64,000 nt of DNA from an uncultured delta proteobacterium (GCA_963832165.1 CAWHTE010000002.1:320001-384000); one strand, 5' to 3'; shown: positions 45,191 to 51,545, counted from the first letter of the stretch. Notes: a model not told the origin generated them from the sequence alone. A program made the numbers and translations.

Positions 45191-45564
45191 CCTCGCACAC
45201 TCTCGCAGGCTGCGCCCCGAGTACTGCCGAAGGCGGATCGTGCCGCCTGATCGATCCTGGCGCGCCCCCGCAGGTTCAGCTCGAGCTGATCGCATCGGTG
45301 GACGCGCGCCTGCAGGGCACCGTGCGGATCAAGCCAGACCTCGCTGGAAGTCCGCGATTTCATTGGACCTGGTTTCGGCGTCGAACTCGACACGATTCGC
45401 GGTCCTCGACCGAGCCCGAAACCCCGCGGGCGCACATTTAGTCAGGTAGCCGAACTGGATTCAAATCCAGTTCACGGAAACGATCAGTGCGTTGGTGACT
45501 CCGGCCAGCGCATGTCACCCAGGACGAGCGCCGAGATCGTGACTCCTGTCGGACGACCCGAGCA

Positions 45565-45822
45565 TCACTTGCTGAAGTGTTTGACCAGAAAGAATCGGGC
45601 CAACTGCTCGCCTTCCTCGGTCAACACCACGGACTTCGACTTCGAAACAGGATCTGAGATCCAGCCTCTTTCGAATAGGAGATTCATGAGGTCCCAATCG
45701 AGCGCCTTCCAGACGCGCCCGCCGTGCAGGGTCAGGCCGAGCATGGCGAGCGCGACCTCCGCGAGCTTGTCCGAATCCAGCTCGTCGGGGAGGCGCGCAG
45801 GACGTTCATCATCGTGAGTCAT
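45565..45822 (-). CDS. DUF6429-like small protein (distal cassette)
   Basis: WKALDWDLMNLL.E.G.I.DP..KSKSVVLT.EG. Confidence 0.75.
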   Translation of the reverse strand: MTHDDERPARLPDELDSDKLAEVALAMLGLTLHGGRVWKALDWDLMNLLFERGWISDPVSKSKSVVLTEEGEQLARFFLVKHFSK

Positions 45823-45839
45823 CGTGGTGCTTGCATGTC

Positions 45840-45897
45840 GCATGACGCTGTCACTCAGCCGCCGGCGGAGCCGGTCGGCTCCAGTGGCTGGTTAGAC
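45840..45897 (-). repeat. attC1, short (58 bp), degenerate R' core
   Basis: Minus strand GTCTAAC...GTCATGC with internal palindrome. Confidence 0.7.
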
Positions 45898-46193
45898 GGT
45901 CGTCGGGTTAGGCGCGACAGCAGATACCCCAATAGACGGTGCAATACGAAGACCGGACCCAGCGGAGCGCCGAGGAGCAGCGCCCAAAACAAATAGCCAG
46001 CTCGCGCTCCGGTATCCCAGATCTCACCGAACGGCGGCGCTAGACAGGCACGACGCGCATTGTCATACCCCACGCCAGCGTCCAGGCATGTATCCATGGC
46101 GTTGAGAATGTAGAACCACTGGCATATCCACACGTACAGCGCGAACATAATCAGGCCGAGTGTCACTTGAATGCCCCGGTGCATCTTCGTCAT
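45855..46193 (-). CDS. Cassette-borne hypothetical 2-TM protein
   Basis: Starts 3 nt after the attC2 core; reads into attC1. Confidence 0.7.
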   Translation of the reverse strand: MTKMHRGIQVTLGLIMFALYVWICQWFYILNAMDTCLDAGVGYDNARRACLAPPFGEIWDTGARAGYLFWALLLGAPLGPVFVLHRLLGYLLSRLTRRPSNQPLEPTGSAGG

Positions 46194-46195
46194 CC

Positions 46196-46353
46196 GCATA
46201 ACGGATCGCGGTTGAGCTGCGGCCGCCCCGCGTGTCTCCCAGTATCAATCCGGCGGCTGCTGCGCGTCAACCACCGAACCGGCGGCCGCCGGCCGTGCGA
46301 CCCGGTACAGCAACCAAAGCGGGTCGGCCGTCAGCTGCAATCGATTGTTAGGC
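46196..46353 (-). repeat. attC2 (158 bp)
   Basis: Minus strand GCCTAAC-aatcga-TTGCAGCTGAC...GCAGCTCAA...GTTATGC. Confidence 0.9.
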
Positions 46354-46382
46354 AGCGACTCGTTGCCGGCCGAAGCCGAACG

Positions 46383-46601
46383 TTACTGCTTGGCCGGCAA
46401 GCGACTGGAAATGGTCCAGGTAACAGCCGTGCCAAGGAAGCATGCTACGAAATAGAACCCCCACCTTGCAATTGGGCTCTCCGGGACTCCTCGCCCAAAG
46501 CGGATGATCTCGCCCGGAAGCACGAGATCAACGCAGCCGATGACAACCATCGCCGGGAAAAGGAAGCAAAGAGCTGCGAGATAGGTTCGTGCCGAGATCA
46601 T
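46383..46601 (-). CDS. Cassette-borne small 2-TM protein
   Basis: 72 aa, sole plausible ORF between attC3 and attC2. Confidence 0.65.
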   Translation of the reverse strand: MISARTYLAALCFLFPAMVVIGCVDLVLPGEIIRFGRGVPESPIARWGFYFVACFLGTAVTWTISSRLPAKQ

Positions 46602-46636
46602 GGATTCTCGTTCGGGTGCCTCCGCTCTGCGTGGTC

Positions 46637-46794
46637 GCCTAACGGATCGGCGCTCAGCTGCGAGCGCGCTGACCGCATCGTAACACCACCGAAGCCGCCG
46701 CCAGGCTGCAAGAGCCGCTGGCGAGCGAAGCGAGCCTTAGCGGCGGTCCTTCGACATGCTGCTGGCGCTCGGCAGCTGCAGCGCCTTGTTAGCC
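46637..46794 (-). repeat. attC3 (158 bp)
   Basis: Minus strand GGCTAAC-aaggcg-CTGCAGCTG...GCAGCTGAG...GTTAGGC. Confidence 0.9.
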
Positions 46795-47249
46795 GGCATG
46801 CCTGCATAGGCGCGCGCGACGAAGCCCGAGAACATCGCCATCACCGTTCCCATGAGAACGAGAAACACCGGGTTTGCAAAATTGGGAAATGGTGGTCCGA
46901 TGACAAACGCGACTAAAGCGGACAGGCTGGATGTTGCGTATGCCGCGCAGCTTAAAGCTAAGAGAGCAACGATTGTCTTAGTAGGTTGCGACGGGACGCC
47001 AACTCGAGATACGCGGAGCCGCGACGCAGCAGCAAACAGGTGGAGGGTAAGCAAGCCCGACCCAGCGAAGGATGCAGCAAGCGAACCCGTGCACCACAGG
47101 TTAACGCGTGGGTCTACGTTGCGTACCGCGAACGCGATGTGGGAGATGAGCAGTCCTGTTAGCAAGAGGACCATCACCCTGCCGCCCTTCGCCGAGCGGC
47201 CCCATCTTTCTAGTCTCGCCAGCCGTGAGTCGGACTCAATCCAAGTCAT
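46737..47249 (-). CDS. Cassette-borne 4-TM hypothetical protein
   Basis: Hydrophobic segments; reads into attC3. Confidence 0.65.
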   Translation of the reverse strand: MTWIESDSRLARLERWGRSAKGGRVMVLLLTGLLISHIAFAVRNVDPRVNLWCTGSLAASFAGSGLLTLHLFAAASRLRVSRVGVPSQPTKTIVALLALSCAAYATSSLSALVAFVIGPPFPNFANPVFLVLMGTVMAMFSGFVARAYAGMPANKALQLPSASSMSKDRR

Positions 47250-47274
47250 CGCCAATCGCCTTTGTACCCATGCC

Positions 47275-47430
47275 GGCTAACGGATCGCGGTTCAGCTGCG
47301 GCCGCCCCGCGTGCCTACGAGTTTCAATCGGCGGCCGCCGCGCGTCAATCACCGGACCGGCGGCCGCCGGCCATGCGACTCAGCGCGGCAACCAAAGCGG
47401 GCGGCCGGCAGCTGCAACCGTTTGTTAGGC
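47275..47430 (-). repeat. attC4 (156 bp), close relative of attC2
   Basis: GCCTAAC...GTTAGCC; aligns with attC2 over its full length. Confidence 0.9.
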
Positions 47431-47868
47431 CGCGCCTCTGATGAGGCCGACGATTTGAAGAATGGCAATGAACAGAGCCGCGAAGCCAAAACCAATGGAC
47501 ATGGTCGCCTGGGTCGTGGCCATGCTGCCACTCGCGACTTTCTGCCGCCAGAGGACCCTGCAGCCAGGGGGCGGGAACTCGCCGAACCGAAGTGCCATTA
47601 CGCCAGTTCTGAGGAAGGCCATGCCACAAACAATGAGAACGCAGATCCCGGGCGACATAAGGAGAACTAGGCGTCGATGCAGGGACGCCGCGTATTGCTC
47701 AGACACTGCGCGGGCCTCGGGAACGGAGAGGCCACTAAGGAAGGGAGGATCTGGGAAAAAGGCCTCAGCGTAGTATCGGACCGAGATGAGCCAAGCCACG
47801 AACACCAACGCGGTGCCGATGACGACCGCTTGGTAAACCGGCTGGGGTTCAGAGTGCCTTGTGCTCAT
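47425..47868 (-). CDS. Cassette-borne membrane protein
   Basis: 147 aa, 3 hydrophobic segments, stop TAA inside the R'' box. Confidence 0.72.
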   Translation of the reverse strand: MSTRHSEPQPVYQAVVIGTALVFVAWLISVRYYAEAFFPDPPFLSGLSVPEARAVSEQYAASLHRRLVLLMSPGICVLIVCGMAFLRTGVMALRFGEFPPPGCRVLWRQKVASGSMATTQATMSIGFGFAALFIAILQIVGLIRGAA

Positions 47869-48074
47869 TCTGTGTGCGGCCTAACGGATCGGCGCTCAGC
47901 TGTCGGCTCGCGGCAACCTTCCGCAACCCCACCGAGCTGCCTTGCCAGACTCTACCAGATTCCGCTAAGGCGCAGGCCGGTCATCTGCAGCGCCTTCCAT
48001 GAGAAGGCCAGCCTCGTCAAGTGGCGAATAACATTATTTCGTCTCTTATCACGACGCGCAGGCTCCCGAGTCGA

Positions 48075-48240
48075 ACCACCACCAGGCTTCCATCCGCACT
48101 CTCGATGACCTCGGTCTCGCGAGGTCGGTGCACACTGAGGTCCTTGGGCGTCGGGTGCTGCAATCTTGTTATCGACCTCTCCTTGCGAAGGGCCCGGCGT
48201 TATAACGCAGTCACCCGGACACGGCGGTCTCGATCCATCA
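48075..48240 (-). ncRNA. Candidate bridge/seek RNA of the IS110 element; boundaries approximate
   Basis: Two stem-loops whose internal loops carry TAACAAG (target match, 48165-48171) and ATGGAAG (donor junction match, 48087-48093). Confidence 0.75.
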
Positions 48241-48245
48241 CGGCT

Positions 48246-49346
48246 CTACGCAGCCTGCACGGAAGCGACTCGCACGGGCTCGTAGACCTCTCCCGTCGTC
48301 CACAGACGGTGCAAGAGGACGGCGAGCCGTCTCGCCACCGCGACGATCGCGCGCTTGCGGGCGATGCTCCCTCCGCGCTCCCCCATGCGAAGGCCCGCAC
48401 GTCGCAGATCCGTGTCGGGACCAAAGGGCCCGAGGATGTAGTGCGCAGCACTCACCAACAGACGCCGCAACAGTCGATCCCCTGCCTTCGTGATCCGTAG
48501 CTGGGGATTCTGTTCCCCCGAATCTCGTCGCTTCGGACGAAGCCCGACGTACGCTCCTACTGCGCGGCTCGTCGCAAATCGGCGCGGGTCCTCGATCGTG
48601 AGCACGTAGTACAGCGCCGTGATCGGCCCCACGCCCGGCACCTGGCGCAGCAGCTCCGTCTCCGGGTAGCGCTCTCGGCACAGCTGCTCCACCTCCCGGT
48701 CCATTTGCCGTATCGTCGCGGTGAGCTGCTCGATCGTGTCGAGGAGCGTCTCCAGCCCGGGGAACAGATCCATCGGCGTCGTCGCGCGCACCCGCTTTGG
48801 AAATGCCTCCGTCGAGCTCGCCGGAACACGCGTCCCCAGCGCCTTCGCGAAACCCCGCACCTGATTCACGAGCTGAGTCCGAGCCCGTACGAGCCCATCC
48901 CGCGTCTGGATCAGGATCCGGTCTCGCTGCGCCTGCGCCCCGCGGTGCACGATCGGCTTCAACAGCGACGGATCCATCCGCCCCAGGCGCGCCAACAGCT
49001 CCGCATCGACGCCGTCGCTTTTCGAGTCGTTCTCCGCGATCAGCCGCACTCGGCGCGGATTCGCGACGATCGCCTCGTGCCCGTGGCGAACGACACAGCG
49101 ACTAACCCATGGCGAGTGCGTCCCTACCTCGAGAACAACCCGACTTGGTGGGAACGAAGCCAACCGCTCCGTCATCGCCGGTTCCGTCGTGCGCACCCGA
49201 AATGCCTCGATCACTGCGCCCGCCGCGTCGAGCACCCGTCCCTCGGTCCACCGGTCGCCTAGGTCCAGACCGATCGTCAACCCGCTCGTGATACGATCAC
49301 CCACGCCAGCCTCCTGTTTGGGACCCACTCCGTGGTGAGCCCGCAA
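48246..49346 (-). CDS. IS110-family DEDD transposase/recombinase
   Basis: IGLDLG, VLEVG, KSDGVDA, VPGVGPITA, YVGLRP..RDSG, ITKAGD..LR, AIVAVARRLA. Confidence 0.96.
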   Translation of the reverse strand: MRAHHGVGPKQEAGVGDRITSGLTIGLDLGDRWTEGRVLDAAGAVIEAFRVRTTEPAMTERLASFPPSRVVLEVGTHSPWVSRCVVRHGHEAIVANPRRVRLIAENDSKSDGVDAELLARLGRMDPSLLKPIVHRGAQAQRDRILIQTRDGLVRARTQLVNQVRGFAKALGTRVPASSTEAFPKRVRATTPMDLFPGLETLLDTIEQLTATIRQMDREVEQLCRERYPETELLRQVPGVGPITALYYVLTIEDPRRFATSRAVGAYVGLRPKRRDSGEQNPQLRITKAGDRLLRRLLVSAAHYILGPFGPDTDLRRAGLRMGERGGSIARKRAIVAVARRLAVLLHRLWTTGEVYEPVRVASVQAA

Positions 49347-49403
49347 TCGTTGCAGACCTTCACGGTACTGCGTTCAGGAGGCTGGCCTTCTCATCCCATC
49401 TTG

Positions 49404-49898
49404 TTAGGCCGCCGGCTCGCCGACAAGAAGTTTGCATTCCTCAATGATTGCGGTGTCGATCTCCGCGATCGAGTCTAGATCGTCGTCCTCGACGTCGTCG
49501 TAGTTGTAGAAGAGGCCCACCAAGCGAGCAATGCCGAAGGACTCGCCCAGGTACTCGCCGGGCGGTAGTAGCTCGTCGATCTCGCGAAACACCCGCTCGA
49601 CGATGAAACGTGCGCCCTGCCTAGGTGGGATCTCGCCACCGGCTACTTGAGAGGCATAGTGCCGCTTGAGGACCTCGCCTGCGTGGATTGGAGTGGGAAG
49701 AGGATGACCAAGCTCTCGGAGCGCAGACTCGAACAGGCTTCGGAGAAGGTGCGGATCGGAGCGGGATGTCTCGCCAGCGAGAACAGCGAGCGATTTCGAA
49801 TCAAGACCGCCCTCTAGCCATGCCGCAGCTACGCCTGGCAGCTTTTCAGGCGGCAAAAACCCGAGGACGTGGGCGGCGGTGGATTCGTTCAGGTGCAT
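49404..49898 (-). CDS. Cassette-borne hypothetical protein (acidic C-terminus)
   Basis: 164 aa between attC6 and attC5; stop in the R'' box. Confidence 0.78.
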   Translation of the reverse strand: MHLNESTAAHVLGFLPPEKLPGVAAAWLEGGLDSKSLAVLAGETSRSDPHLLRSLFESALRELGHPLPTPIHAGEVLKRHYASQVAGGEIPPRQGARFIVERVFREIDELLPPGEYLGESFGIARLVGLFYNYDDVEDDDLDSIAEIDTAIIEECKLLVGEPAA

Positions 49899-49907
49899 TT
49901 TCAGGCG

Positions 49908-50021
49908 GCCTAACGGATGGCCGCTAAGCTGCGGCCGCGCGAAATGCTACCACGACCCGCAAGCGCACAGCTGGCCGAGCTGTTGAAGCCCGCGGCCGTC
50001 AGCTTCAGCGGCTTGTTAGAC
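49908..50021 (-). repeat. attC6 (114 bp)
   Basis: Minus strand GTCTAAC-aagccg-CTGAAGCTGAC...GCAGCTTAG...GTTAGGC. Confidence 0.9.
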
Positions 50022-50387
50022 GGCCACTCGCGCTGGTCGCCAGAACTCCACGAAGAACGACGTTCGGCCTGACAGTGCAACGTGGTGCTCTACCTCAGGC
50101 AGCACGATGCCCGGAGACGCCGGGGTGAGCCGCTGACATCGATTGAAAGGTGCATGCACATAATAGTCGATAGGGCCGTGAGTAATCTGGATGCGAGCCC
50201 AGATGCCTCGCTTCGTGGTGTGAAGCTTGAGGAGAGCTTCAGGAACTGAACTCTCATCGAAGTCTGGCGTTCGGTGGTAGGGCTCGTAGCCGAGTGGAAT
50301 CTCGCTGCGATCACATTGGACACAGTCGAGATCTGTTCCGATCCGCGATTGGCGGCCCTCGGTAGTGAGTACCCATCGTCGGTCGGA
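50009..50387. repeat. ~379-bp direct repeat of 50886-51264 (3' part of the first cassette plus the attC end)
   Basis: Offset 877 bp, about five mismatches by eye. Confidence 0.93.
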
Positions 50388-50885
50388 TCAGAAGCGCGGC
50401 GACCCTACCTGCGTGCTGATCACGGCGCGGTCCGTCACGCAAAGAAGGCCAAGACAAACGAACGCGATGTCTGCGGAAACCTGGGCGCTCGAGCGAAAAA
50501 ATGAACGAGCGCGCGGTCACAACAAGGCGGCGGTCGCCCTGGCGAACAAACTCGCGCGGATCGTATGGGGGGTGTGGAAACACGACCGCGCCTACTGCAG
50601 TCCGTCTCAGAGCTAGAAACCCCATCGGCTGATTCGAGCGAACGACGATGATGGCGCACCGGTTCGGACCGGCGCAGGACCAGGCCGACAACAAGCATGG
50701 CCTCAGAGGCCGCTGTCCAGCGATTGGCCCCCTGCGCGCGACTTTCCATCATGGCCCGGAGCCGAGTGCTCCACACACGAGGCCGGAGATACGACTGCAG
50801 TCGAACCCAGCGCCAAAATCGTTCGAAAGGAGCTCCGAAGTAAAAGATCAGCGCGAAGAATCAGATTGACGGAGGAGTCCAGATA
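50388..50885 (+). mobile_element. Partial second IS1111-type element: transposase C-terminus, non-coding region and right end
   Basis: KRGDP..., RGHNKAAVALANKLARIVWGV, stop 50616; end TTGACG...GGAGTCCAGATA abutting CGGCTTGTTAGAC. Confidence 0.85.
50645..50810 (+). ncRNA. Candidate seek/bridge RNA of the second element; boundaries approximate
   Basis: AACAAGC (50690-50696) and TCCAGCG (50716-50722) match both sides of target TTCAG-CG-GCTTGTT; AGATACG (50787-50793) matches the element end. Confidence 0.72.
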
Positions 50886-50892
50886 CGGCTTG

Positions 50893-51366
50893 TTAGACGG
50901 CCACTCGCGCTGGTCGCCAGAACTCCACGAAGAACGACGCTCGGCCTGACAGTGCAACGTGGTGCTCTACCTCAGGCAGCACGATGCCCGGAGACGCCGG
51001 GGTGAGCCGCTGACATCGATTGAAAGGTGCATGCACATAATAGTCGATAGAGCCGTGAGTAATCTGGATGCGAGCCCAGATGCCTCGCTTCGTGGTGTGA
51101 AGCTTAAGGAGAGCTTCAGGAACTGAACTCTCATCGAAGTCTGGCGTTCGGTGGTAGGGCTCGTAGCCGAGTGGAATCTCGCTGCGATCACATTGGACAC
51201 AGTCGAGATCTGTTCCGATCCGCGATTGGCGGCCCTCGGTAGTGAGTACCCATTGTCGTTCGGAGAAGGGCGGGCCGTGCCGCGTGTGTCGGCGGTGTCC
51301 GCACGCAAGCTCGGCAACCCATTCGGAATCGATGTCTTCGGCAAACGCGACGATCGGTCGATTCAT
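50893..51366 (-). CDS. First cassette: DUF3565-like N-terminus fused to a DUF1971 (TehB/YeaR-like cupin) domain
   Basis: WVAELACGH..H.RH.PP...R.WV...EGR...LDC..CD followed by RTPDF.E.SVP.ALL..HTTK.G.W...PEVEHHV...FFVEFW. Confidence 0.78.
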   Translation of the reverse strand: MNRPIVAFAEDIDSEWVAELACGHRRHTRHGPPFSERQWVLTTEGRQSRIGTDLDCVQCDRSEIPLGYEPYHRTPDFDESSVPEALLKLHTTKRGIWARIQITHGSIDYYVHAPFNRCQRLTPASPGIVLPEVEHHVALSGRASFFVEFWRPARVAV

Positions 51367-51383
51367 TGATTGTGGGAATGGCC

Positions 51384-51545
51384 GTCTAACTTGAATTCGA
51401 CAGGTCTGCGTAACACCCGGCACACAGCAGAGAAGCTGGCGTAACACGGGCGCAGGAGAGATATACCACGCGTGAAGCCGCCGTATCGCCAGCGTTTGCA
51501 AGCGGCAGCGGCGGTAGGTTCCGGCGTTGGGCAGGTCTGCGTAAC
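51384..51545 (-). other. attI-like site with direct repeats
   Basis: GTTAGAC core with no matching inverse core; CAGGTCTGCGTAAC at 51401-51414 and 51532-51545, GCGTAACAC at 51439-51447. Confidence 0.6.

What the first reader, a model, noticed from the sequence alone, without database searches (positions are those of the whole stretch)
47997..49402. Intact attC-targeting IS110 element with a readable two-loop bridge RNA and a CTT core
Seen: the element splits attC5 at ...GCGC-CTT-GTTAGGC, with CTT at both junctions, a perfect 17-bp sub-terminal IR and an intact DEDD+Ser recombinase. Read on the transposase strand, the downstream non-coding region forms two hairpins. Hairpin 1 (GGGTG-ACTGC...TGCAG-CACCC, ~48153-48216) has an internal loop with TAACAAG, matching the target flank plus core. 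Hairpin 2 has ATGGAAG (48087-48093), matching the donor end plus core. Both matches end on the same AAG core. The target-loop match extends by AT into donor sequence (ATCTTGTTA equals the recombinant junction), as expected for handshake pairing. Established: IS110/IS1111 elements use bridge/seek RNAs, and some IS1111 elements target attC. Inference: this is a complete RNA-guided recombinase with an apparently 3-nt core, inserting at a different attC position and in the opposite orientation from the second element here. The opposite loop strands (TTATAACGC, ACCTCAGTG) match poorly, so their role is unclear.
Basis: partly seen in the sequence, partly recalled or inferred. Interest (0 to 1): 0.82.

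Follow-up and report, generated by a model that had tools for sequence, protein, structure and literature searches.

The report
RNA-guided insertion sequence in integron site
An intact-looking jumping gene sits in a gene-cassette recombination site and carries a small guide RNA that spells out that site; the mechanism is already known, but this lineage enters at a different base and faces the other way from the described ones.

Summary
The element is real: a 1,406-bp IS1111-type insertion sequence (47996-49401, minus strand) with a perfect 17-bp sub-terminal repeat, an intact DEDD+Ser recombinase and a downstream two-loop RNA whose stems co-vary. In 55 distinct homologous insertions both target-loop strands track the insertion site (0 of 5,000 shuffles reach it), so the bridge/seek RNA reading holds. 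The core is 2 nt (CT), not CTT: the third base varies with the target. The 5' target strand does not match poorly: it pairs at 6 of 9 plus a wobble, one base off the IS621 register. Donor-side handshake covariation was not significant and no RNA data exist. The protein is 27-29% identical to ISKpn4/ISPa21/ISPa25, lies near ISAcp5/ISCARN52, inserts 3 nt from their site and runs with the cassettes, not against them. A third, unrelated lineage in this genome uses the identical base. The freshest point: the 5' guide uses two registers that switch between close relatives. The scan has noted attC-targeting IS1111 elements with readable guides in other genomes before. Verdict: new variant of a known kind.

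The parts
47996..49401 (-). Whole insertion sequence, 1,406 bp, ends drawn by the IS1111 convention (7-bp left extension that includes the core, 3-bp right extension)
   Evidence: single copy in G000
47994..47995 (+). 2-nt core CT, copy at the element's right end (AG on the transposase strand)
   Evidence: AG at the right junction in 48 of 55 and at the left junction in 54 of 55 distinct insertions
49400..49401 (+). 2-nt core CT, copy at the element's left end
47999..48015 (-). Right sub-terminal inverted repeat, 17 bp, 3 bp inside the end
49378..49394 (-). Left sub-terminal inverted repeat, 17 bp, 7 bp inside the end
48015..48020 (-). -35-like hexamer TTGACG pointing out of the right end; a weak -10 (3 of 6 consensus letters) forms only across the predicted circle junction
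   Evidence: TTGAC starts 25 nt (100 of 109 right ends) or 26 nt (7) before the core; no complete promoter in the integrated form; function inferred
48246..49304 (-). IS110-family recombinase, 352 aa from the GTG behind an AGGAGG; D14, E59, D97, D100, S262
   Evidence: start codon inferred
49305..49316 (-). Inner copy of the repeat over the ribosome-binding site; pairs with 49375-49386 in a predicted hairpin
   Evidence: exact inverted match of 10 nt or more in 48 of 75 distinct left ends
48148..48222 (-). Target-binding hairpin of the bridge/seek RNA
48196..48204 (-). 5' target guide (LTG in IS621 terms), TATAACGCC; pairs with 8 target bases plus the first core base, 6 of 9 plus one G.U
48165..48171 (-). 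3' target guide (RTG), TAACAAG: 5 target bases plus the core, 7 of 7
48163..48164 (-). Target-loop handshake AT, matching the two donor bases next to the core
   Evidence: AT in 73 of 81 parsed loops; same letters as IS621 A81/U82; role inferred
48080..48147 (-). Donor-binding hairpin (outer stem weak and poorly resolved)
48133..48141 (-). 5' donor guide position (LDG), ACCTCAGTG; 4 of 9 plus one wobble against the left end
   Evidence: no covariation can be shown, role inferred
48087..48093 (-). 3' donor guide (RDG), ATGGAAG: right end plus core, 7 of 7
   Evidence: invariant in 48 of 48 aligned sequences (the rows were cut using this motif as an anchor)
49402..49409 (-). attC R'' box plus one base, left on the upstream side of the element; holds the stop codon of the cassette gene 49404-49898
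47879..47995 (-). Remainder of the attC (spacer, L'', L', R')

Best explanation
This is an IS1111-group member of the IS110 family, from the ISAcp5/ISCARN52 lineage, whose non-coding region downstream of the recombinase gene encodes a two-loop bridge/seek RNA programmed for the R''-L'' spacer of attC sites. Shown here: the anatomy, the RNA's stems, the tracking of both target guides with insertion sites, the 2-nt core, and the fixed site and orientation. Inferred from IS621 and ISEc11/ISKpn4: the element excises as a circle, the joined ends form a promoter, recombinase and RNA are co-transcribed, the target loop pairs with both strands of the attC around CT, the donor loop holds the joined ends (mainly by its 3' strand, helped by the repeats), and serine-linked 2-nt staggered exchange inserts the element without adding bases. 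By aiming at a motif that nearly every cassette carries, the element gets an intergenic landing site that is renewed with each new cassette.
For: 3' guide matches the left flank at 4.35 of 5 against 2.33 in shuffles, 5' guide matches the right flank at 6.82 of 9 against 4.20, 0 of 5,000 shuffles for each, n = 55 distinct insertions; in the 28 non-attC insertions alone 3.93 vs 1.94 and 7.0 vs 3.94, again 0 of 5,000. 36 of 38 rows with an attC-type 3' guide sit next to an R''-type flank, 0 of 31 rows with another guide do (duplicates not removed). L080 changes the base outside the core to C in both flank and guide. A complete attC can be rebuilt around 18 of 78 two-ended rows (the query, one duplicate pair and 15 others), always at the same base and orientation. 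Loop layout (G, N, 9-nt guide, linker; G, N, 7-nt guide, AT) mirrors IS621 as described in PMC11208158. Guide order and the 7/3-bp extensions match IS1111 in PMC11187229.
Against: No expression, circle or empty-site evidence for this copy. One copy only in G000, while empty sites with a perfect 3'-guide match stand nearby (46776 and 50003). The query's 5' guide (6 of 9) is weaker than that of most attC relatives with a 12-nt loop (7-9 of 9 in 11 of the other 15). The 5' donor guide is identical to the donor at 5 of 9 positions at best and does not co-vary. Donor-loop handshake bases do not co-vary with the target (1,891 and 365 of 5,000 shuffles reach the observed value). Homologues are kin, so the shuffle tests overstate significance. 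Several homologues fit neither register (12 of 42 under 7 of 9).
Confidence: 0.85

Rival explanations
1. Seek-RNA model: only the target hairpin (about 75 nt) is the working guide; the ends are recognised by the protein through the long sub-terminal repeats, and the second hairpin is a scaffold or precursor part with at most a one-strand contact to the donor.
For: PMC11187229 found short 70-100 nt RNAs dominant and sufficient for ISEc11. Here the 5' donor strand matches poorly near the core and RNAalifold pairs its conserved TCA with the 3' donor strand; donor handshake covariation is not significant.
Against: ATGGAAG is invariant and equals the right end plus core; the second hairpin has compensatory changes (4 of 6 pairs in its inner stem); unrelated lineages keep the same match to their own ends. 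It is compatible with the best explanation on targeting and differs only on the donor loop.
Confidence: 0.3
2. This particular copy is no longer mobile: the 5' target guide has drifted, so the element is a recently stranded relic although gene and ends are whole.
For: Single copy; two A.C mismatches in the 5' guide against its own site; empty matching attC sites nearby.
Against: Frame, catalytic residues, both repeats, -35 and all stems are intact; its closest relatives (88-92%) carry equally imperfect 13-nt loops and are found at attC sites.
Confidence: 0.25
3. The element recognises the folded single-stranded attC hairpin, as integron integrase does, rather than duplex DNA by RNA pairing.
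For: The target is a structured site; the shifted register could reflect an unusual substrate (inference).
Against: [quoted passage not shown]
Confidence: 0.07
4. One reading: the recombinase uses a 3-nt CTT core.
For: CTT stands at both junctions of this copy, and the 5' guide is shifted by one base.
Against: The third base is A in only 27 of 55 distinct insertions and follows the guide; an attC insertion with C there exists (L080); the element's own last three bases are constant. The guide shift points away from, not towards, the third T.
Confidence: 0.02

Closest known systems
IS1111-attC group: ISKpn4, ISPa21, ISPst6, ISPa62, ISPa25 and their seekRNAs (PMC11187229; Tetu & Holmes 2008 and Post & Hall 2009 not read, seen only as cited)
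   Same: IS1111 anatomy, downstream guide RNA with the same loop layout, insertion in the attC spacer beside the R'' box, and a 5' guide that also fits one base off (7 of 9 shifted against 3-5 in register in 5 of 5 fetched elements).
   Different: Protein 27-29% identical; different repeats; core CT instead of CG, 3 nt nearer R''; transposase runs with the cassette genes, whereas the known group is antisense (PMC3001079). A single clade of all attC-targeting elements is rejected (p-AU 5e-5).
ISAcp5 and ISCARN52 (ISfinder; IS1111 side of the trees in PMC11187229 and PMC11208160)
   Same: Shared motifs by eye: IGxDLGD, GTHSxW, and the C-terminal YILGxFGPDTDLRR ... AVARxLAVLLHxLWxTxExYxP. Identity was not computed.
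   Different: No target or guide is given for them in the passages and supplement hits seen; ISAcp5 has long non-coding regions on both sides. Relatives at 53-56% from Acidobacteriota MAGs sit in other repeats, not attC.
IS621 bridge RNA and recombinase (PMC11208160, PMC11208158; PDB 8wt6)
   Same: DEDD plus serine, CT core, two loops, G-N-guide layout, target-loop handshake AU against donor AT.
   Different: RNA lies downstream of the gene and target orientation is flipped; long repeats; 5' donor guide degenerate; 5' target guide covers 8 bases plus only the first core base instead of 7 plus both.
Group IIC-attC introns (PMC3001079, passages)
   Same: Unrelated mobile element that also homes to attC next to the R'' end.
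   Different: Retroelement, inserts antisense to the cassettes.

Membership tests
IS110 family | [quoted passage not shown] | tested here: met
   D14, E59, D97, D100, S262
IS110 family | Recombination about a short core, 2 nt in IS621, with no other bases added | tested here: met
   the rebuilt empty site has the same spacer as the empty attC at 46776-46791
IS110 family | Circular intermediate with a junction promoter | tested here: inconclusive
   -35 at a fixed distance in 107 of 109 right ends, weak -10 only across the junction; no circle seen in contigs
IS1111 group | Sub-terminal inverted repeats with 7-bp left and 3-bp right extensions | tested here: met
   17-bp perfect repeat at offsets 7 and 3; rule quoted from PMC11187229
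IS1111 group | Long non-coding region downstream of the gene | tested here: met
   about 250 nt downstream against about 95 nt upstream
IS1111 group | Top-strand match 5' of the bottom-strand match in the guide RNA | tested here: met
   5' loop strand is the reverse complement of the right flank, 3' strand equals the left flank
Bridge/seek RNA systems | Target loop whose two strands co-vary with the target | tested here: met
Bridge/seek RNA systems | Donor loop pairing with both strands of the joined ends | tested here: inconclusive
   3' strand 7 of 7; 5' strand 4 of 9 plus a wobble; donor invariant, so no covariation test
Bridge/seek RNA systems | Handshake bases pairing with the non-cognate DNA | tested here: inconclusive
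   target loop AT in 73 of 81; donor loop not significant
Bridge/seek RNA systems | RNA is expressed, binds the recombinase and is needed for movement | not testable with these tools
   needs small-RNA sequencing or a pull-down
IS1111-attC group (ISKpn4 clade and ISPa25) | Inserted in attC sites | tested here: met
IS1111-attC group (ISKpn4 clade and ISPa25) | Transposase in the ISKpn4/ISPa21/ISPa25 clade | tested here: not met
   27-29% identity; separate branches
IS1111-attC group (ISKpn4 clade and ISPa25) | Same insertion point (CG core 4 nt before GTTAG on the bottom strand) | tested here: not met
   CT core 1 nt before GTTAG, 3 nt away
IS1111-attC group (ISKpn4 clade and ISPa25) | Antisense to the cassette array | tested here: not met
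   gene runs with the cassette genes; an open frame of 50 codons or more ends within 45 nt of the left end on the same strand in 9 of 18 rows, the others have short flanks (no control)

The most novel reading that the evidence does not exclude
The 5' target guide of these recombinases can pair in either of two registers one base apart (7 bases plus both core bases, or 8 bases plus only the first core base) without moving the crossover. Among 42 insertions with a 12-nt loop, 15 fit each register at 7 of 9 or better and none fits offsets -2 to -4; the state changes at least 5 times among 28 rows on the tree, between relatives 82-91% identical. The second core base departs from T only in the shifted set (3 of 15 against 0 of 15, too few to be significant). 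If real, the bottom-strand heteroduplex slides in the synaptic complex, which would add a design rule and an off-target class for bridge editors; and attC has been colonised by at least three separate IS1111 lineages, two of them at the identical base in one genome.
Probability: 0.55. Interest if true: 0.62.

Novelty: new variant of a known kind. Interest (0 to 1): 0.45.

Why it matters
It extends RNA-guided attC targeting beyond the proteobacterial ISKpn4 group to a widespread environmental lineage that enters at another base and in the sense direction, so read-through from the cassette array could reach the gene and its guide RNA. The homologue set is a natural reprogramming series (one scaffold, dozens of targets, proteins 67-92% identical to the query), which gives ready candidates and pairing rules for IS1111-type bridge editors, including a testable one-base register shift. 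The principle itself is published, so the gain is in breadth and in detail.

Tried and rejected
Rfam: no family at gathering score in the window. Viral contigs: no relative. Plasmid collection: best relative about 35% identical; the second G000 lineage 28% at best. Folding energy of the non-coding region alone: not above shuffles. Sequencing runs: no RNA holder listed; contigs of 4 runs laid on 45400-51500 show pieces identical to the inside of the element in X1 but none across a junction, no circle and no empty site; no evidence either way. Donor-loop handshake covariation: not significant. Covariation of the 5' donor guide with the ATGAG/ATGGG variation of the left end: none. A protein residue that separates the two registers: no clean column among 35 rows. 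Integron integrase in G000: 5 weak tyrosine-recombinase matches, none over the TIGR02249 cut-off; the assembly is 89% complete, so absence is not shown. My first loop parser mis-cut the 5' loop (replaced); my first tree took wrong reading frames for many rows (replaced, which dropped 4 short rows; 26 near-redundant or endless rows had been left out beforehand). My attC pattern scan of the genome was too strict to count sites (5 hits). Self-pairing of the palindromic part of the 5' guide with the 3' guide: not favoured (both over 0.9 unpaired). Literature searches for a description of this site, orientation or register found none, but Tetu & Holmes 2008 is not held, Post & Hall 2009 was not read, most subscription papers are missing, and one scanned supplement in each of the two 2024 papers could not be searched (the large Durrant table is cut). 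That ISUnCu1 equals ISPa62 is recalled, not checked; if it is a different element its site remains unchecked.

Full report
What is there. The window holds a small cassette array on the minus strand (about 45500-51400) with repeated attC-like sites. One of them is split by the element in question. With the element removed in silico the site is 125 bp, with R'' and R' complementary at 7 of 7, and its spacer is the same as that of the uninterrupted site at 46776-46791. The stop codon of the upstream cassette gene (49404-49898) lies inside R'', as usual for cassettes (established knowledge). The element has a perfect 17-bp inverted repeat set 7 and 3 bp inside its ends, a 352-aa frame with PF01548 and PF02371, NF033542 well over its cut-off and the residues that align with IS621's DEDD and serine. 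It is the only copy in G000. No integron integrase over the family cut-off was found in this 89% complete assembly.

Homologues. Searches gave 58 loci from genomes, 80 (the best of 135) from metagenomes and 8 from relatives, including the query itself. Ends were located with short anchors. The target hairpin could be parsed in 81 rows; 60 had both flanks, 55 of them distinct. All counts below use these sets, and the rows are kin, so shuffle tests overstate significance.

The core is two bases. On the transposase strand the junctions read AG on the left in 54 of 55 and on the right in 48 of 55 (GG 4, AA 2, AC 1). L080 sits in a complete attC with C at that place, and its guide has C there too. 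The apparent CTT arises because the element's last base and the attC base happen to be the same. Drawn this way the ends have the 7-bp and 3-bp extensions that PMC11187229 gives for IS1111 (passages), and the core is CT on the plus strand, as in IS621 (PMC11208160 and PMC11208158, passages).

The RNA. The non-coding region does not fold better than shuffles by energy alone (z -0.80), and Rfam has nothing. Across 48 aligned sequences (48 of the 66 available) two hairpins are kept: 97.1% of cells paired, 10 of 30 pairs with changes on both sides, 0 of 500 shuffles as high, slid controls 31-46% (the structure came from the same alignment). The target loop has the layout G, N, nine bases, linker on the 5' side and G, N, seven bases, AT on the 3' side, the same as IS621's numbering in PMC11208158. 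The 3' strand matches the left flank at 4.35 of 5 non-core bases (null 2.33) and at 6 or 7 of 7 in 47 of 55. The 5' strand matches the reverse complement of the right flank at 6.82 of 9 (null 4.20, best of two registers in both). Neither is reached in 5,000 shuffles, also not in the 28 non-attC insertions alone. 36 of 38 rows with an attC-type 3' guide stand next to an R''-type flank, and 0 of 31 others do.

Results against the full bridge model. The 5' donor strand is identical to the left end at positions 1, 3, 5, 6 (91-100% of 64 rows) and partly 4, but not at 2 or near the core, and does not follow the one variable base of the end; RNAalifold pairs part of it with the 3' donor strand. The donor-loop handshake does not co-vary with the target; in the query it matches 1 of 2. 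The target-loop handshake is AT in 73 of 81 but faces an invariant donor. The query's own 5' target guide is 6 of 9 plus a wobble, weaker than most attC relatives. PMC11187229 reports that the short RNA alone moves ISEc11. So target guidance is well supported, donor guidance only by one invariant 7-base match.

Two registers. In 42 insertions with a 12-nt 5' loop, 15 fit at 7 of 9 or better in the IS621 register (7 bases plus CT), 15 fit one base off (8 bases plus C), none at offsets -2 to -4, and 12 fit neither; chance rates were 2% and 7%. Thirteen more have a 13-nt loop and are ambiguous. The shifted register holds for 11 of 16 attC-like rows and for 4 of 26 others. It changes at least 5 times among 28 rows on a FastTree tree, between pairs 82-91% identical, and no residue separates the states. 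The five fetched ISKpn4-group elements also fit better one base off, so it is not peculiar to this lineage; I found no text that describes it. A one-base bulge near the core is an alternative that sequence cannot exclude.

Relation to known attC invaders. The remnant at 50378-50885 resembles ISPa21/ISPa62 in protein end, guide and terminal sequence. ISPa21-like, ISPa62, ISKpn4 and ISPa25 records (the ISPa21 record is not in an attC) insert at a CG 4 nt before GTTAG and antisense to the cassettes, in line with the table in PMC13604230 (section read) and PMC3001079 (passages). The query inserts 3 nt nearer R'', in the sense direction, and is 27-29% identical to them. By shared motifs its nearest named relatives are ISAcp5 and ISCARN52 (supplement hits; identity not computed). 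Within its lineage a 59-row branch is mostly attC-targeting and contains re-targeted offshoots. G000 also holds two near-identical copies of a third lineage (25% identical to the query) at exactly the query's base and orientation, with its own TAACAAG guide; of its three relatives at 80-86%, two are in attC and one has a changed guide and target. A tree that holds all attC-targeting rows together is rejected (27 rows, LG+G4, p-AU 5e-5); the group was named after I had seen the larger tree, long branches are present, and the test does not tell separate origins from repeated loss.

How it most likely works. Shown: anatomy, stems, target guides, core, site, orientation. Inferred from IS621 and ISEc11: excision to a circle; a promoter from the -35 kept 25-26 nt inside the right end (107 of 109 rows) and a weak -10 that forms only across the junction; one transcript for gene and RNA, later trimmed; a hairpin between the left repeat and its inner copy over the ribosome-binding site that would damp translation (such inner repeats in IS1111 elements are recalled, not from a call); pairing of the target loop to both strands around CT; serine-linked exchange with a 2-nt overlap. 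Insertion moves R'' 1.4 kb away from the rest of the site, so the cassette boundary is probably closed to integrase until the element leaves (inference). Being co-oriented, the integrated copy could be read from upstream cassette transcription (inference).

Verdict. The mechanism and attC targeting by IS1111 elements with seekRNAs are published (PMC11187229). New here are the lineage, the site, the orientation, the convergence of unrelated lineages on one base, and the two-register guide. Earlier notes of this scan describe comparable elements in other genomes; none was found by sequence or place and none on the register. They were not checked and did not change the reading. Papers seen: PMC11187229 (passages, section 13, supplement search), PMC11208160 (passages, section 12, supplement search), PMC11208158, PMC3001079, PMC11616780, PMC11226647, PMC13626964 (passages), PMC13604230 (passages, section 32). 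Tetu & Holmes 2008 and Post & Hall 2009 were not seen.

Noticed in passing
G000:C5 about 195380-196916 (L147, L153) and G000:C7 about 814980-816510 (L148, L171): Two near-identical copies of an unrelated IS110-family element (351 aa, 25% identical to the query, no plasmid relative above 28%) sit in attC sites at exactly the query's base and orientation; its downstream region has its own TAACAAG and ATGGAAG matches; the C7 copy is frameshifted.
   Followed up: partly
window 50378-50885: 3' remnant of an ISPa21/ISKpn4-type element (last part of the gene, guide region and right end) at the classic CG site, antisense to the cassettes. A soil-run contig carries a near-identical piece that continues upstream.
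   Followed up: partly
window 50009-50376 and 50886-51253: A stretch of about 368 bp (attC end plus part of the last cassette gene) is duplicated on both sides of the remnant, with 3 differences; cause unclear (rearrangement by the element, or assembly).
   Followed up: no
L067 right flank: A 92% relative of the query is inserted at the left junction of an element of the C5-type lineage inside an attC: two unrelated elements stacked at one site.
   Followed up: no
L098, L100 flanks; L157-L165 upstream regions: Two relatives of the query are inserted in a sequence that looks like the left end of another IS110-family subgroup (51-54% relatives of the C5 element): an element that targets another element's end.
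   Followed up: no
L015-L033, L046, L048, L049: Relatives at 53-64% in Acidobacteriota MAGs occur in many copies, all within one short interspersed repeat family.
   Followed up: no
L005, L117, L118: One element whose 5' guide has G at the first core position is found at three different target cores (GT, TT, CT on the flipped strand), a natural case of relaxed core reading.
   Followed up: partly
window 45500-51400: Cassette array of seven or so small genes, mostly without Pfam match (one DUF6429 at 45565-45843), with no integrase beside it and none over the cut-off in the assembly; further attC clusters lie on C2, C5, C7 and probably C11.
   Followed up: partly
G000:C3 about 790690-791800: A further IS110-family gene, 31% identical to the query, with a long upstream non-coding region and no attC seen beside it.
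   Followed up: no
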